From: a virus | UHGV virus genome: UHGV-0087418 | Reading direction: 5' to 3' (one strand) | DNA: 64,000 nt | Part shown: in pieces, positions 3,189-34,235 of the stretch | How positions within the stretch are numbered: position 1 is the first letter of the stretch | Layout of the letters: each line of letters begins with the position of its first letter | Notes under the pieces: generated by a model | The model's database searches: none | What the model was told of the DNA's origin: nothing | What the model saw: only the letters and a program-made list of their open reading frames with translations | Made by a program: the position numbers and the translations under genes

Positions 3189-5008
3189 TACTGGCTCATC
3201 CATTCTTTACGAAGGTCAGCATTATCTCCCATGAGCATTTCAAAAAGCTCTTTCCAGTTCTCAGGAAGTTTAACAACATCATATACTGGGTTTTGAATCA
3301 TCTCACGATATTCAGATTTTTCCAAAGAGCCAAGTCCCTTAATATAACGGATGCTATGTTTAGGTAGAGCATCTTTGGCACTCTCATATTCAGCGACTGT
3401 ATAAAACCATTCTTGTTTTTTACCGACCTGAGCGATGATTACAGGAGTTTTGACGAAACGAATTCTTCCTTGTTCAAACAGTTCTGGCCAATTACTAAAA
3501 AATCCGAGCAGAGAAGGATAAATGCTTCCTAGACCATCATGGTCGGCATCGGTCATAATTGCAATATTATGATAATTCAAGTTTTCGGCTTTTTCACCAA
3601 GAACTAATCCAGTGATTGCGCAAATATCAAATAGTTCTTTGTTTTTAAGCATATCAGCATATGACATACCCCAGCTGTTAAGAACTTTACCGCGTAATGG
3701 ATAACCACCATGAAGTTCTTTATCACGAACATCAATAAGATATCCGATAGCCGAATCACCCTCAGTCAAGAAAAGAGTAGTGTCAGCATCTTTACCACAA
3801 AGATTCGCTTTAATATGTTTATGAACCTTAGCTTTAGAAGCCTTTTTAGCTGCTTTAGTTTCTGCTGCCTTTTCTGCCGCCAATTTACGAGCCAAGGCAG
3901 CTTCAATAATTGGCATTAAAATTGCTTCATTATTTAAAATAGCGCGTGAAATCTTTTTAGCATCAAGCTGAATATGACTACGAATTTCACCAAATGGAGA
4001 AGTCAAACGCTCTTTAGTTTGAGAATCAAATCGCATGTTTTTCATATCACGAACAAACATAACGATAGTCAAACATTCTTTAACACGTGCTTTAGTTACA
4101 TCAATTTTGAACTTGCGTTTGATTTGTGGAATAAGGTCTTCACAAATATCATCCATAACGCAGTCAATGTGATGGCCACCATTCTTAGTATGAATGTTAT
4201 TGACGTATGTTAATTGACGAAAACCATCCGGTGAACGACCAACCGCAATAGAACAATTTTCTTGTTCTTGAACAATAGCATGCTCATCATATTGGCGTGC
4301 ATATTTCTTAAAATTGCCCTGAACCTTTTTACCATTAAAGGTAAATTGAATATCAGGATAAACTACTGCAAGTGTCTGGAGACGATCCAGTGTAATGTCA
4401 AGATAAACTTGAGATAGCTCATTAGTTTCAAATGACATAAAATCAGGAATGAAAGTAACACGTGTTCCTTTCCATTTTCCAGGAATATCTTCCCATGATT
4501 TATTTTCCATGCCATTTGAACAACGAACTACAATATTATTTTGACCGTCGCCAGTTTCACCGACAAACATCACAGAAAAAATGTTAGTTAAACTAGAACC
4601 AACACCGTTCATACCGCCAGTGACGCGTTCTTTGTCATCACCAAAGTTACCACCTGCTTTTGGAATAGTCCAGGCAGCAACAGGACCAGGAATTTCTTCA
4701 CCAGTAGGTGTTTTAACCATCGCTTGTGGAATACCACGACCGTTATCTTCAACTGTTACTTGATTGTTTTTAATAGTAACATTAATTTTATTTGCGAATT
4801 TAAACTTAGTACGAATACCTTCATCTACCGAGTTATCGATAATTTCATCAATAAGCTTAACAAGACCAGGTACATACTGAACACTTTCCCATTTACCAAA
4901 CAGAAAGCGCTCATGCATTTCATTAGCGGAAGAGCCAATGTACATGCCGCTACGCTTTTTGATATGTTCAATATCGCTCAGAATTTTAATTTCATTCTTA
5001 ATCATCAC
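3188..5008 (-). CDS. 39: DNA topoisomerase II large subunit, fused 39+60 type (GyrB-like ATPase)
   Basis: 606-aa ORF with GHKL ATPase and TOPRIM-like motifs; length matches the fused form found in T-even phages other than T4; no separate gene 60 or bypass segment seen. Confidence 0.9.
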   Translation of the reverse strand: MMIKNEIKILSDIEHIKKRSGMYIGSSANEMHERFLFGKWESVQYVPGLVKLIDEIIDNSVDEGIRTKFKFANKINVTIKNNQVTVEDNGRGIPQAMVKTPTGEEIPGPVAAWTIPKAGGNFGDDKERVTGGMNGVGSSLTNIFSVMFVGETGDGQNNIVVRCSNGMENKSWEDIPGKWKGTRVTFIPDFMSFETNELSQVYLDITLDRLQTLAVVYPDIQFTFNGKKVQGNFKKYARQYDEHAIVQEQENCSIAVGRSPDGFRQLTYVNNIHTKNGGHHIDCVMDDICEDLIPQIKRKFKIDVTKARVKECLTIVMFVRDMKNMRFDSQTKERLTSPFGEIRSHIQLDAKKISRAILNNEAILMPIIEAALARKLAAEKAAETKAAKKASKAKVHKHIKANLCGKDADTTLFLTEGDSAIGYLIDVRDKELHGGYPLRGKVLNSWGMSYADMLKNKELFDICAITGLVLGEKAENLNYHNIAIMTDADHDGLGSIYPSLLGFFSNWPELFEQGRIRFVKTPVIIAQVGKKQEWFYTVAEYESAKDALPKHSIRYIKGLGSLEKSEYREMIQNPVYDVVKLPENWKELFEMLMGDNADLRKEWMSQ

Positions 5009-31594: not shown

Positions 31595-31786
31595 TTAGTC
31601 ATAATAATCAGTAACAGTCCAAGCTTCATTTCTGTTGGACATTATTTTCGTATATTCTGCTTTAAATGCATTCTTAAGCATAGATTCAGTAACTATATGC
31701 TCTTCATTAGAAAAATTATTTCTCAGAATATATCGTTTTATTTCAGGAATAGTTAATAGATGCTGTCCAGTTGAATATTCTGCCAC
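31595..31786 (-). CDS. hypothetical protein (45.2-like)
   Basis: 63-aa ORF; apparent GTG start. Confidence 0.35.
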   Translation of the reverse strand: MAEYSTGQHLLTIPEIKRYILRNNFSNEEHIVTESMLKNAFKAEYTKIMSNRNEAWTVTDYYD

Positions 31787-31796
31787 AGTTCCTCCG

Positions 31797-31804
31797 TATA
31801 AATA
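31797..31804 (+). promoter_or_regulatory. T4 late promoter TATAAATA on the plus strand
   Basis: tataaata at 31797-31804, about 33 nt upstream of the HNH endonuclease ATG, with an AAAGGA ribosome-binding site. Confidence 0.55.
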
Positions 31805-31837
31805 TGTTTATCACTCGCTGTATCAAAAGGATATGTT

Positions 31838-32554
31838 ATGAATTATAAACTAATTTATGAAAAGTTAATCTCTAATGCTAAATCTCGAAAACTTGATTGC
31901 TATACTGAATCTCATCACATTATACCACGCTGTTTAAATGGTAGCGATGATGCTTCAAACTTAGTAGATTTAACACCAGAAGAGCACTATGTAGCTCATC
32001 AACTTTTAGTAAAAATTTATCCTTCTGAACCAAAATTAGTCTATGCTGCTAACATGATGACAGTTTCTACGAAATACGCTAAACGTAACAATAAAACTTT
32101 CGGCTGGATTCGTCGTAAACTCTGGGAAATAGAAAAGAATAAAGAGTTCTCCCAAGAGACACGAAAGAAAATGTCCGATGCAGTAGCTAATAAAGCAAGA
32201 CTAACTTGTCCACATTGCGGTAAGTCTGGATTAAGCGGGAATATGAATCGATGGCATTTTGATAACTGCCCAAATCATCCCAATCCTAAAGTTAGACCGC
32301 CAATGTCTAAAGAACACAGAAATAATATCTCAAACGGGCTTAAAGCAATCGTTCTTGAAGAAACATCCTGCGAATTCTGCGGAATGATAGGCAAGAAATG
32401 CGTTATCGCAGCGCATAGAAATTTCTGCAAGAAAAATCCAAATGGACGCAAGAAAACTGAAAAGACTGGTACTTGCGTCCATTGTGGTAAAGTTACCACT
32501 TTCGGAAATTTATCAAGATGGCATAATGATAACTGTAAATATAAACCTAGCTAA
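31838..32554 (+). CDS. HNH homing endonuclease (mob-type, free-standing)
   Basis: 238 aa on the opposite strand to its neighbours; HNH core ESHHIIPRCLNGSDDASNLVDLTPEEHYVAH; three CxxCG...W/RH.DNC zinc-finger-like repeats. Confidence 0.7.
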   Translation: MNYKLIYEKLISNAKSRKLDCYTESHHIIPRCLNGSDDASNLVDLTPEEHYVAHQLLVKIYPSEPKLVYAANMMTVSTKYAKRNNKTFGWIRRKLWEIEKNKEFSQETRKKMSDAVANKARLTCPHCGKSGLSGNMNRWHFDNCPNHPNPKVRPPMSKEHRNNISNGLKAIVLEETSCEFCGMIGKKCVIAAHRNFCKKNPNGRKKTEKTGTCVHCGKVTTFGNLSRWHNDNCKYKPS

Positions 32555-34235
32555 TCTTAGCTAAACTAAATCTACCAACTTTTTCCATTTGAATGTGCTG
32601 ACCATATTCCTGTGGGTCATGGTCTTTATGCGAAATTATGAAGAAGTTGGTATCCTTCAAACCATCTAAAATTTTAGCCACATTTTTAATACCTTCAGCA
32701 TCAAATGCACCGTCATACACTTCATCAAGAAATAAACAACTTATTTTAACACCTGAAACTTTTTCAGCAATATCACGCCAAGTAAATAAAAGAGCAATAT
32801 CAATTCGTGCTTTTTCGCCTTGACTGAATGAAGCATAACTAAAATCTTCGCGACCGCGGGATTTAATTGTCTCATTAAATTCTTCATCTAATGTAAACAC
32901 ATAATCCGCTTCCATTATTTTAAGATAATGGTTAATCTGCTTATTAAATAATGGAATGTACTTTTTAATAATAGCACCTTTAATACCAGAATCTTTGAGC
33001 ATATCAGTCAAAATTCCTCTGTGGTATTTTTCCATTACTAAATTAGTTTTTGTCTTAACAATTTTATCAAGTTCTTCTTGAAGCAGTGCTATTTCATCAG
33101 CATGGTCAATAAACTCAGATGATGCTTTTTCTATAGCTGCTTTAACTTTTTTAGCTTTATCTACCGTCGTGATTAGAGATTGCTTTTTATTGCGAATATC
33201 ATTCGCCAACGTCTGCTGGGTTTTAATATTATCTCGGTATTCATCAACAAGAACTTTTAAATTATCACGATGTGTTGAAAGCTGTTCAAACGAATGTGTG
33301 CATTCAGAAACTTTATCTTTAATTTTAGAAACAACTTTATCACCGGAACTTAATTGTGACAAACAGGTTGGACATAATCCACCTTCGTGATACATATTAA
33401 TGACTTTATTATACGAGTCAATTTTTGATTTAATTAAAAATGCTTCTTGACCGATTTTATTAAATGCATCAGTCGGGTCTTCATCCAAAACAATATTAAC
33501 TAATCTTTCATTAGCTTCTTCTATTTCCGATTTTAACGTTCTAGCTTCTTTTGCCAAATCATCATACATATTCTGTAGACGAGTAAGGTTATCACCAGTT
33601 AATTTTTTCTGGCGTTCAACGTTATCATTATATATTTTAATTTGCTGGATAATACTATCTTTTTTAACATCAAGCACTTGGTTTTGTGAATTTAATTCAC
33701 GTATTAGTGCTTTATTAAGCTTATCCATTTCAGCTAATGTTCCTACCTCGAGCAGGTCTTCGACGAGTTTTCTTCTTGCAGGAGTGGATAGGCCCATAAA
33801 AGGGGTATATCCAGCCGTGCCGAGTACGACGATCTGTTTGAAACTGGCATATGACATTCCGATAAGCTGTTCAAATTCTGCTTGGAAATCTTTACTGCTG
33901 GCAGATTCATTAAGACGTGTACCGTTAACGGTGATTTCGAAAACATTCGGTTTTTGTCCTCTTTTGATATAGTACTTTTTCTCATCATATTCCATCCACA
34001 GTTCAACTAAAAGTTCTTTCTTATTTGTGCTGTTTATTAATTGACCTTTCTTTACATCACGAAATGGCTTGCCAAAAAGCCCAAATGTGATGGCTTCTAA
34101 CATAGTAGACTTACCACCGCCATTTCGTCCAGTAATAAGAGTTTTTTGAACCTTATCTAGTTGAATGTCAATAGGATTTCCACCTACTGACATTATATTT
34201 TGATACCTAACTCGGTTTAGTTTAAAATTCTTCAC
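32547..34235 (-). CDS. 46: recombination endonuclease subunit (Rad50/SbcC-like ATPase)
   Basis: 562 aa; Walker A GRNGGGKST, coiled-coil middle region, C-terminal signature/Walker B. Confidence 0.85.
   Translation of the reverse strand: MKNFKLNRVRYQNIMSVGGNPIDIQLDKVQKTLITGRNGGGKSTMLEAITFGLFGKPFRDVKKGQLINSTNKKELLVELWMEYDEKKYYIKRGQKPNVFEITVNGTRLNESASSKDFQAEFEQLIGMSYASFKQIVVLGTAGYTPFMGLSTPARRKLVEDLLEVGTLAEMDKLNKALIRELNSQNQVLDVKKDSIIQQIKIYNDNVERQKKLTGDNLTRLQNMYDDLAKEARTLKSEIEEANERLVNIVLDEDPTDAFNKIGQEAFLIKSKIDSYNKVINMYHEGGLCPTCLSQLSSGDKVVSKIKDKVSECTHSFEQLSTHRDNLKVLVDEYRDNIKTQQTLANDIRNKKQSLITTVDKAKKVKAAIEKASSEFIDHADEIALLQEELDKIVKTKTNLVMEKYHRGILTDMLKDSGIKGAIIKKYIPLFNKQINHYLKIMEADYVFTLDEEFNETIKSRGREDFSYASFSQGEKARIDIALLFTWRDIAEKVSGVKISCLFLDEVYDGAFDAEGIKNVAKILDGLKDTNFFIISHKDHDPQEYGQHIQMEKVGRFSLAKIS

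What the first reader, a model, noticed from the sequence alone, without database searches (positions are those of the whole stretch)
31797..32554. Plus-strand HNH homing endonuclease behind a late promoter, inserted between 45.2 and gene 46
This is one of the few genes on the opposite strand to the rest of the region. A canonical TATAAATA late promoter lies at 31797-31804 and a ribosome-binding site precedes the ATG. The protein has an HNH core and three tandem CxxCG...(W/R)H.DNC zinc-finger-like repeats. T4 has no gene at this position as far as I recall, so this looks like a lineage-specific mobile endonuclease insertion next to the 46/47 recombination genes, a classic homing target.
Basis: partly seen in the sequence, partly recalled or inferred. 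Interest (0 to 1): 0.45.

Follow-up and report, generated by a model that had tools for sequence, protein, structure and literature searches.

The report
Known Mob-type HNH homing endonuclease gene
This is an intact selfish "homing endonuclease" gene wedged between phage genes 45.2 and 46; T4 lacks it, but about one in eight T4-like coliphages carry it and it has been annotated since the RB32 genome of 2006, so it is real but ordinary.

Summary
A 238-aa ORF (31838-32554, + strand) lies between minus-strand genes 45.2 and 46. An exact TATAAATA sits 41 nt upstream and AAGGA sits 6 nt before the ATG. The protein has an intact HNH motif and three Cys2-His-Cys fingers; the second finger deviates from the stated pattern.

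T4 has only a 55-bp spacer at this position. Of 517 matching phage records, 60 carry the insertion. The gene is 99.6% identical to RB32ORF054w, annotated in 2006 and counted as a mob-like HNH homing endonuclease gene in a 2010 review. Its closest T4 paralogue is MobE (35% identity).

It is not confined to one lineage. Orthologues (44-64% identity) occupy the same tail-to-tail position in Dhakavirus, Mosigvirus and Pseudotevenvirus, and are sporadic within genera where this was counted.

Among seven copies, 35 polymorphic codons are synonymous and 5 are not, so the protein is under purifying selection.

Most likely mechanism, by inference: late-expressed nicking or cutting of endonuclease-free genomes at the gene 46 3' end and spacer, followed by recombinational copying. 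The target site is predicted only loosely; one candidate signature failed a replicate test. No cleavage or homing data exist.

Verdict: already known, low interest.

The parts
31797..31804 (+). T4-type late promoter TATAAATA, 41 nt upstream of the ATG
   Evidence: Exact match. Only 5 copies in the window against 10.1 expected. Conserved upstream of the orthologous genes in Dhakavirus (-44) and Mosigvirus (-53).
31827..31831 (+). Ribosome-binding site AAGGA, 6 nt before the ATG
   Evidence: Read directly from the sequence. AAGGAT is also present in the Dhaka and Mosig orthologue leaders.
31838..32554 (+). Free-standing Mob-type HNH homing endonuclease gene, 238 aa
   Evidence: PHROG 655, 9e-69; RB32ORF054w; MobE, 35% identity. 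35 synonymous vs 5 non-synonymous polymorphic codons among 7 genomes, all ORFs intact.
31907..31999 (+). HNH catalytic motif, E24-H54 (ESHHIIPRCLNGSDDASNLVDLTPEEHYVAH)
32144..32182 (+). NUMOD3-like helix (EFSQETRKKMSDA)
   Evidence: Pfam NUMOD3 E=0.14 for this protein. 16 of 30 family members hit NUMOD3, best E=1.7e-29.
32207..32269 (+). Cys2-His-Cys finger 1 (C124, C127, H140, C144)
   Evidence: Sequence. Conserved in the gene-46-associated clade. The model has strand-strand-helix at pLDDT >85.
32369..32428 (+). Variant Cys2-His-Cys finger 2 (C178, C181, H193, C197)
   Evidence: Sequence. Present only in the clade with >=42% identity. The model has strand-strand-helix.
32474..32536 (+). Cys2-His-Cys finger 3 (C213, C216, H229, C233), the family-wide C-terminal finger shared with MobE
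   Evidence: All four ligands are invariant in 30 sequences and align with MobE CPHCG...RWHYDKC. The profile hits the CTCF finger array at E=1.6e-3.
31781..32560 (.). Segment with no counterpart in T4; it replaces T4's 55-bp 45.2/46 spacer
   Evidence: Pairwise and 13-genome alignments. Identity to endonuclease-free genomes ends at 31780 on the left and resumes at about 32561 on the right.
32547..32600 (-). 3' end of gene 46 (altered tail ...GRFSLAKIS*; overlaps the endonuclease ORF by 8 nt). This is the counterpart of the predicted target region in endonuclease-free genomes.
   Evidence: In Mosigvirus the only differences between carrier and non-carrier within more than 150 nt lie here. The Leu548 codon is CTT in 10 of 10 endonuclease-free genomes and differs in 9 of 10 carriers.
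31595..31786 (-). Gene 45.2, left neighbour; in carriers its start is GTG plus an extra Ala codon
32441..32500 (.). Two adjacent hairpins inside the ORF (a 12-bp perfect stem at 32441-32452 / 32472-32483, then 32485-32500); possible attenuator or terminator
   Evidence: inverted repeat I3.: -25.6 kcal/mol, z -5.3 on the minus strand; -27.1 kcal/mol, z -4.8 on the plus strand. Specific to Tequatrovirus. Function not tested.
32322..32347 (-). MotA-type middle-promoter-like match, antisense inside the ORF; a candidate replacement for the spacer promoter lost on insertion
   Evidence: The pattern occurs 19 times in the window against 4.5 expected. T4, HY01 and RB18 carry a match in the spacer instead. 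This is inference only.

Best explanation
This is a functional, free-standing homing endonuclease gene of the T4 'Mob' (HNH) type. It is the same gene as RB32ORF054w.

Shown:
- The ORF is intact and under purifying selection.
- It has a complete HNH motif, followed by NUMOD3-like helices and three Cys2-His-Cys fingers.
- An exact T4 late promoter and a good ribosome-binding site precede it.
- It replaces the 55-bp 45.2/46 spacer in a minority of otherwise collinear genomes, in at least three genera; a fourth, Pseudotevenvirus, also has carrier and non-carrier genomes at this site.

Inferred:
- Late in a mixed infection the protein binds DNA through its fingers and helices.
- It nicks or cuts the endonuclease-free allele near the 3' end of gene 46 and the spacer.
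- T4-type recombination-dependent repair then copies the gene, plus adjacent gene 46 sequence, from the carrier genome.
- Carrier genomes are protected because the insertion and nearby substitutions alter the site.
For: Family assignment:
- PHROG 655 'homing endonuclease', E=9e-69.
- MobE: 35% identity over the full length, E=3e-34.
- Family profile against McrA HNH, E=6e-4, and against CTCF fingers, E=1.6e-3.
- AF2 model with pLDDT 90, showing a strand-strand-helix core and three strand-strand-helix fingers.

Catalytic and zinc-ligand residues are invariant.

Sporadic distribution:
- 60 of 517 Tequatrovirus-like records carry it.
- The same count of 60 comes from tblastn at >=95% identity and from the linked gene 46 allele.
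- 9 of 60 Dhakavirus-like records carry it.
- T4, RB69, JS98, QL01 and RB43 lack it.

The site and orientation are the same in four genera.

There are no fixed carrier vs non-carrier differences outside 31781-32738, so the cassette sits in recombining backgrounds.

Purifying selection: 35 synonymous vs 5 non-synonymous polymorphic codons.

The late promoter is rare in the window and conserved in orthologues.

Precedent: MobE nicks the neighbouring nrdB gene and is inherited at high frequency, with co-conversion of flanks (PMC2790892).
Against: - There is no biochemical or genetic evidence of cleavage or homing for this protein, here or in the literature searched.
- Pfam HNH is below its gathering score for this sequence (16.9 vs 21.4 bits).
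- Endonuclease diversity among carriers (about 2-3%) is similar to that of the flanks. The distribution could therefore be an old polymorphism reshuffled by ordinary recombination rather than active homing.
- The best candidate immunity signature, the Leu548 codon, fails in the carrier Mosigvirus mar005p1.
Confidence: 0.8

Rival explanations
1. The gene is a resident, vertically inherited nuclease that no longer homes. On this reading it is an old gene at this locus, lost from most lineages and kept in the rest for another benefit, such as excluding competing phages, stimulating recombination, or carrying regulatory signals its neighbours need.
For: - The same site and orientation occur in four genera, and endonuclease identity roughly tracks gp46 identity: 64% vs 69%, 44% vs 45%, 68% vs 68%.
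- Within-carrier diversity equals that of the flanks.
- Strong purifying selection is more than a purely selfish, cycling element needs.
- Regulatory-looking elements lie on its antisense strand.
Against: - The gene is sporadic within Tequatrovirus and Dhakavirus, and Mosigvirus and Pseudotevenvirus each have both carriers and non-carriers, with precise presence/absence boundaries.
- Carriers belong to several Tequatrovirus species.
- One clear incongruence exists: Mosig vs Tequatro is 58% for the endonuclease but 82% for gp46.
- The close relative MobE is demonstrably mobile.
Confidence: 0.14
2. The gene is an inactive, decaying remnant of a homing endonuclease gene, comparable to I-TevIII in T4.
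For: Pfam HNH is sub-threshold. The middle finger is degenerate.
Against: - The ORF is full length in all 7 genomes examined, with 35 synonymous vs 5 non-synonymous polymorphic codons.
- All catalytic and zinc-ligand residues are conserved across 30 homologues.
- The promoter and RBS are intact and conserved.
Confidence: 0.04
3. The ORF is a chance open frame or a mis-called gene.
For: None found.
Against: 2278 homologues at E<=1e-10, a confident structure model, and annotation in dozens of genomes.
Confidence: 0.01

Closest known systems
RB32ORF054w (ABI94878.1) of Escherichia phage RB32, and its copies annotated 'homing endonuclease' in about 60 Tequatrovirus records
   Same: It is the same gene: 99.6% protein identity, the same position between 45.2 and 46, the same orientation, and the same 8-nt overlap with gene 46. 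It is counted among the 2 mob-like HNH genes of RB32 in PMC2993671, Table 5.
   Different: Nothing of substance differs. The RB32 note says 'similar to mobB', whereas tblastn and blastp here found MobE to be the best full-length T4-type match.
T4 MobE (free-standing HNH endonuclease between nrdA and nrdB; PMC2790892)
   Same: The N-terminal HNH domain is alignable from residue 1, there is a NUMOD3 region, and the C-terminal CxxCG...RWHxDxC finger is shared. Identity is 35% over the full length. Both are free-standing, sit next to a conserved DNA-metabolism gene, are sporadic among relatives, and have a hairpin inside the coding region (compared with the mobE internal terminator).
   Different: - MobE is promoterless, co-oriented with its neighbours and co-transcribed with nrdA. 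This gene has its own late promoter and is antisense to its neighbours.
- MobE has one finger and several NUMOD3 repeats. This clade has three fingers.
- The target gene differs: nrdB for MobE, presumably gene 46 here.
Orthologues beside gene 46 in other genera: Dhakavirus (04086, MX01, Bp7), Mosigvirus (348Ecol098PP, mar005p1), Pseudotevenvirus (Cronuts), and Yersinia phage MHG19
   Same: The intergenic site is the same, the arrangement is tail-to-tail with gene 46, the length is 236-238 aa, and the three-finger architecture is shared. TATAAATA plus a conserved leader is present in Dhaka and Mosig.
   Different: - Identity is 44-64%.
- Mosig and Dhaka have a hairpin exactly at the tail-to-tail junction rather than inside the ORF.
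- Pseudotevenvirus lacks an exact TATAAATA.
- In Mosigvirus the gene 46 coding sequence is almost unchanged by the insertion.
I-HmuI and other phage HNH nicking homing endonucleases (from my own knowledge, and as cited in PMC2790892)
   Same: The layout is modular and extended: an HNH catalytic domain followed by separate DNA-binding modules.
   Different: I-HmuI is intron-encoded. No significant sequence or fold match to it was recovered here, so this is an analogy and not tested membership.

Membership tests
HNH (beta-beta-alpha-metal) nuclease superfamily | His-Asn-His catalytic and metal-binding residues in the motif HH..P...G......N.V.L....H | tested here: met
   ESHHIIPRCLNGSDDASNLVDLTPEEHYVAH. 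E24, H26, H27, N41, H50 and H54 are invariant in 30 homologues. The motif aligns residue for residue with the McrA and group II maturase HNH motifs.
HNH (beta-beta-alpha-metal) nuclease superfamily | Score at or above the Pfam PF01844 gathering threshold | tested here: not met
   16.9 bits against a cut-off of 21.4, E=0.007. 18 of 30 family members hit PF01844 at E<=0.01, and the family profile hits the McrA HNH at E=6e-4.
HNH (beta-beta-alpha-metal) nuclease superfamily | Beta-beta-alpha fold around the motif | tested here: met
Mob-type free-standing HNH homing endonucleases of T4-like phages | Sequence homology to MobA-E over the HNH domain and the C-terminal finger | tested here: met
   MobE: 35% identity over 251 columns, E=3e-34. 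MobD N-terminus: 53% identity over residues 1-70 (H91). PHROG 655, E=9e-69.
Mob-type free-standing HNH homing endonucleases of T4-like phages | Free-standing intergenic position, present or absent among otherwise collinear close relatives | tested here: met
   60 of 517 records carry it, and T4 has a 55-bp spacer instead. 9 of 60 Dhakavirus-like records carry it.
Mob-type free-standing HNH homing endonucleases of T4-like phages | Sequence differences at or near the target in carrier genomes (self-immunity) | tested here: inconclusive
   The junction and the gp46 tail differ in all carriers. The Leu548 codon is CTT in 10 of 10 endonuclease-free genomes and altered in 9 of 10 carriers, but it is unchanged in mar005p1. 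The true target is unknown.
Mob-type free-standing HNH homing endonucleases of T4-like phages | Site-specific nicking or cleavage, and super-Mendelian inheritance in mixed infection | not testable with these tools
   This needs phage crosses and break mapping, as done for MobE (PMC2790892).
NUMOD3-containing nuclease-associated DNA-binding modules | Match to Pfam PF07460 | tested here: not met
   E=0.14, 12.6 bits against a cut-off of 20.4 for this protein. 16 of 30 relatives match strongly. In this clade fingers occupy the positions where relatives have NUMOD3 repeats.
T4 late (gp55/gp33/gp45-dependent) promoter | TATAAATA a short distance upstream of the gene on the coding strand | tested here: met
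   Exact match at 31797-31804, conserved in two other genera. Actual late transcription cannot be tested here.

The most novel reading that the evidence does not exclude
The insertion may have taken over its neighbours' regulatory signals on its antisense strand. In endonuclease-free Tequatroviruses the 55-bp spacer carries a strong hairpin and a MotA-type middle promoter for 45.2/rpbA. Carriers lose both. Inside the endonuclease ORF, on the minus strand, they have a very stable hairpin followed by a U-run (32500->32432) and a new middle-promoter match (32347->32322). If these are functional, deleting the selfish gene would disturb host-gene expression. That would be an antisense version of the 'embedded promoter' retention strategy described for segG, mobB and mobC. 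Separately, the hypervariable and partly inter-genus mosaic 3' end of gene 46 could be a footprint of repeated endonuclease-triggered gene conversion.
Probability: 0.2. Interest if true: 0.4.

Novelty: already known. Interest (0 to 1): 0.18.

Why it matters
It matters little on its own. It adds one more member to the well-studied set of free-standing endonuclease genes in T4-like phages, and it is already annotated as such.

The modest value is practical:
- It is an uncharacterised Mob-family enzyme with its own late promoter and an unusual three-finger DNA-binding array.
- It sits beside the gene for the Rad50-like nuclease subunit that phage double-strand-break repair depends on.
- Natural carrier and non-carrier pairs exist in several genera (in Mosigvirus they are nearly identical around the site). 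That makes a convenient system for mapping a Mob-type target site and testing how such elements coexist with essential neighbours.

Tried and rejected
1. I first took the ~200-bp divergent stretch of gene 46 (32600-32770) as the co-converted or immunity tract marking the cleavage site. I rejected this. The stretch is equally variable among endonuclease-free Tequatroviruses (pairwise 0.18-0.20), and in Mosigvirus the carrier and non-carrier are essentially identical there.
2. The Leu548 codon (CTT in all non-carriers, altered in carriers of three genera) looked like a clean immunity signature. The carrier Mosigvirus mar005p1 keeps CTT, so I report it only as suggestive.
3. I looked for an RNA hairpin sequestering the RBS, as in I-TevI and mobE. 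The leaders of three genera fold no better than shuffles (z -0.35 to -0.71).
5. A single-sequence search of PDB sequences found nothing significant. The family profile was needed.
6. IMG/VR held no close (>64%) copy, so population comparisons used GenBank phage records.
7. MAFFT aligned T4's 55-bp spacer to the 5' end of the endonuclease gene. I treated the 'fixed differences' at 31803-31874 and at 32291/32295 as alignment artefacts.
8. By eye I found no convincing similarity between the promoter/leader and the putative target (an I-TevI-style operator), and did not pursue it.
I re-ran it without that row.

Full report
**1. What is in the sequence**

The window at 29.4-35.7 kb is the T4-type replication/recombination cluster. 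It runs 44, 45, rpbA, 45.2, 46, 46.1, 46.2, 47, all on the minus strand. Between 45.2 (31595-31786) and 46 (32547-34235) lies a single plus-strand ORF at 31838-32554, encoding 238 aa.

- TATAAATA is at exactly 31797-31804.
- AAGGA is at 31827-31831, 6 nt before the ATG.
- TATAAATA occurs only 5 times in the 64-kb window, against 10.1 expected from shuffles. A copy 41 nt upstream of an ORF on the right strand is therefore unlikely to be accidental.
- The ORF's last 8 nt overlap the 3' end of gene 46, tail to tail.

**2. It is an insertion relative to T4**

T4 (NC_000866) has only a 55-bp spacer between 45.2 and 46. Alignments show near-identity up to window 31780 and again from about 32561.

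In carrier genomes:
- 45.2 starts with GTG plus an extra Ala codon.
- gp46 ends ...GRFSLAKIS instead of ...GRFTVMV.

Megablast of the locus finds 517 phage records, and 60 of them contain the whole insertion. The same number, 60, comes from tblastn with the protein at >=95% identity and from the linked gene 46 3' allele at >=95% identity, with no record at 90-95%.

**3. What the protein is**

Sequence and profile evidence:
- PHROG 655 'homing endonuclease', E=9e-69.
- Pfam HNH is sub-threshold for this sequence alone (16.9 vs 21.4 bits).
- The motif ESHHIIPRCLNGSDDASNLVDLTPEEHYVAH is complete. E24, H26, H27, N41, H50 and H54 are invariant in a 30-sequence alignment.
- A profile of that alignment hits the McrA HNH domain (E=6e-4), a group II maturase HNH, Cas8-HNH, and the CTCF zinc-finger array (E=1.6e-3) among solved structures.

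Structure prediction:
- The AlphaFold model is confident, with mean pLDDT 90.
- It shows a strand-strand-helix catalytic core and three strand-strand-helix fingers.
- Their ligands are C124/C127/H140/C144, C178/C181/H193/C197 and C213/C216/H229/C233.
- Whole-model searches were otherwise uninformative.

Closest T4-type paralogue:
- MobE, at 35% identity end to end, E=3e-34, including the C-terminal finger.
- In relatives, NUMOD3 repeats occupy the positions where this clade has fingers 1 and 2.

**4. It is already known**

RB32 carries the same gene, 99.6% identical, at the same place. It has been annotated since 2006 as RB32ORF054w, 'putative site-specific intron-like DNA endonuclease, similar to mobB'. 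Petrov et al. 2010 count two mob-like HNH genes in RB32 (PMC2993671). Dozens of GenBank records call it 'homing endonuclease'. I found no paper in the held library that characterises it experimentally.

**5. It is not lineage-specific**

Homologues with >=42% identity all sit between 45.2 and 46, convergent with 46. This holds in:
- Dhakavirus (04086, 64% identity);
- Mosigvirus (348Ecol098PP, 58%; mar005p1, 59%);
- Pseudotevenvirus (Cronuts, 44%);
- IMG/VR contigs.

More distant homologues are at other sites, such as nrdA or neck genes.

In Dhakavirus the distribution is again sporadic, with 9 of 60 Dhakavirus-like records carrying the gene. RB69, 308Ecol101PP, QL01, JS98 and RB43 lack it.

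Endonuclease identity roughly tracks gp46 identity between genera, with one clear exception. Mosig vs Tequatro is 58% for the endonuclease against 82% for gp46, while Mosig vs Dhaka is 68% against 68%. This suggests long residence with at least one exchange between genera.

TATAAATA and a conserved leader (tttatc..tcgctgtatcaaa.aaggat) precede the gene in Tequatro-, Dhaka- and Mosigvirus.

**6. It is functional**

All seven copies compared are intact. They differ at 35 synonymous and 5 non-synonymous codons. There are no fixed carrier vs non-carrier differences left of 31781 or right of 32738. The cassette therefore sits in freely recombining backgrounds that belong to several Tequatrovirus species.

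**7. Mechanism**

This section is inferred by analogy with MobE (PMC2790892) and the general model for free-standing endonucleases (PMC2988022).

- The gene is expressed late.
- The protein recognises the endonuclease-free 46/45.2 junction through its fingers and helices.
- The HNH domain nicks or cuts there.
- Recombination-dependent repair copies the gene from the carrier genome.

**Where the target lies**

I first took the ~200-bp divergent stretch of gene 46 (32600-32770) as the linked or immune tract. I then rejected this, for two reasons:
- The stretch is just as variable among endonuclease-free Tequatroviruses, which have two further allele classes.
- It is unchanged between carrier and non-carrier Mosigviruses.

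In Mosigvirus the only differences within more than 150 nt are a 3-change cluster at Gln546/Leu548 and the tail after ...GRFTVM.

The Leu548 codon is CTT in 10 of 10 non-carriers from three genera. It is ATT, TTG or TTA in 9 of 10 carriers. The carrier mar005p1 keeps CTT.

I therefore place the target only loosely, in the last ~50 bp of gene 46 plus the spacer. The insertion itself is probably the main protecting change in carrier genomes.

**8. Side observations on regulation**

T4's spacer contains a strong hairpin (-19.3 kcal/mol, z -6.1) and a MotA-type middle-promoter match. Carriers lose both.

Inside the endonuclease ORF there is:
- a 12-bp perfect hairpin at 32441-32483 (z about -5 on either strand), followed on the minus strand by a U-run;
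- a minus-strand middle-promoter match at 32347-32322 (the pattern occurs 19 times in the window against 4.5 expected).

These features are specific to Tequatrovirus and are untested.

**9. Verdict**

The element is a previously annotated member of a well-known class. Novelty: already known. Interest: low.

Noticed in passing
window 32596-32800 (gene 46, codons ~490-548): The 3' end of gene 46 is a hypervariable mosaic even among endonuclease-free Tequatroviruses, with pairwise divergence of 0.18-0.20 in 50-nt windows. There are at least three allele classes. About half of the differing codons are non-synonymous. The RB18/JLBYU22 allele resembles Mosig/Dhaka gp46 in this stretch (DSATD..., ISHRDHDPQAYGQH). 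The flanks are 0-3% divergent.
   Followed up: partly
T4 locus L001 4245-4305 (minus strand) vs window 31787-31837: T4's 55-bp 46/45.2 spacer holds a MotA-type middle-promoter match (TGCTTTAATTTATTAGAGTATAAT) and a strong hairpin (-19.3 kcal/mol, z -6.1). Both are missing from carrier genomes.
   Followed up: partly
window 32322-32347 (minus strand): A middle-promoter-like match (TGCTTTAAGCCCGTTTGAGATATTAT) lies antisense inside the endonuclease ORF, about 535 nt upstream of 45.2. It is present in RB32 as well but not in the Dhaka or Mosig orthologues.
   Followed up: partly
window 32441-32500: A 12-bp perfect inverted repeat and an adjacent small hairpin lie inside the ORF (z about -5 on both strands). 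On the minus strand they are followed by UUGGAUUUUUCUU, 47-115 nt downstream of the gene 46 stop. This recalls the internal terminator of mobE. The one stem substitution seen (PuKrd-SF4, T->C at 32482) would keep a G-U pair only on the minus strand.
   Followed up: partly
window 31805-31831; L096 2460-2495; L094 2455-2495: A ~25-nt leader between the late promoter and the RBS (tttatc..tcgctgtatcaaa.aaggat) is conserved across three genera, although the proteins are only 58-64% identical. It has no significant RNA fold. It could be an operator or a translational signal.
   Followed up: partly
L094 ~3205-3225; L096 ~3208-3228: In the Mosigvirus and Dhakavirus orthologues a hairpin (AAGCCTC-loop-GAGGCTT) sits exactly at the tail-to-tail junction with gene 46 and looks like a bidirectional terminator. 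The Tequatrovirus version lacks it.
   Followed up: no
window, whole: TATAAATA is under-represented (5 observed vs 10.1 expected). The MotA-box/-10 pattern is over-represented (19 vs 4.5). Both fit an early/middle-gene region of a T4-like phage.
   Followed up: no
GenBank PV654520.1 (hits H3, H41): A record labelled 'Pseudomonas phage vB_PSGBLB0006' (142 kb, host P. aeruginosa) carries this locus at 98.8% DNA identity and 100% endonuclease protein identity. It looks like a Tequatrovirus sequence, possibly mislabelled or from a mixed lysate.
   Followed up: no
L099 550-553; L100 546-549: In endonuclease-free Dhakaviruses (QL01, JS98) the gene 46 stop overlaps the 45.2 start with no spacer at all. 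The insertion in carrier Dhakaviruses therefore separated two overlapping genes.
   Followed up: no
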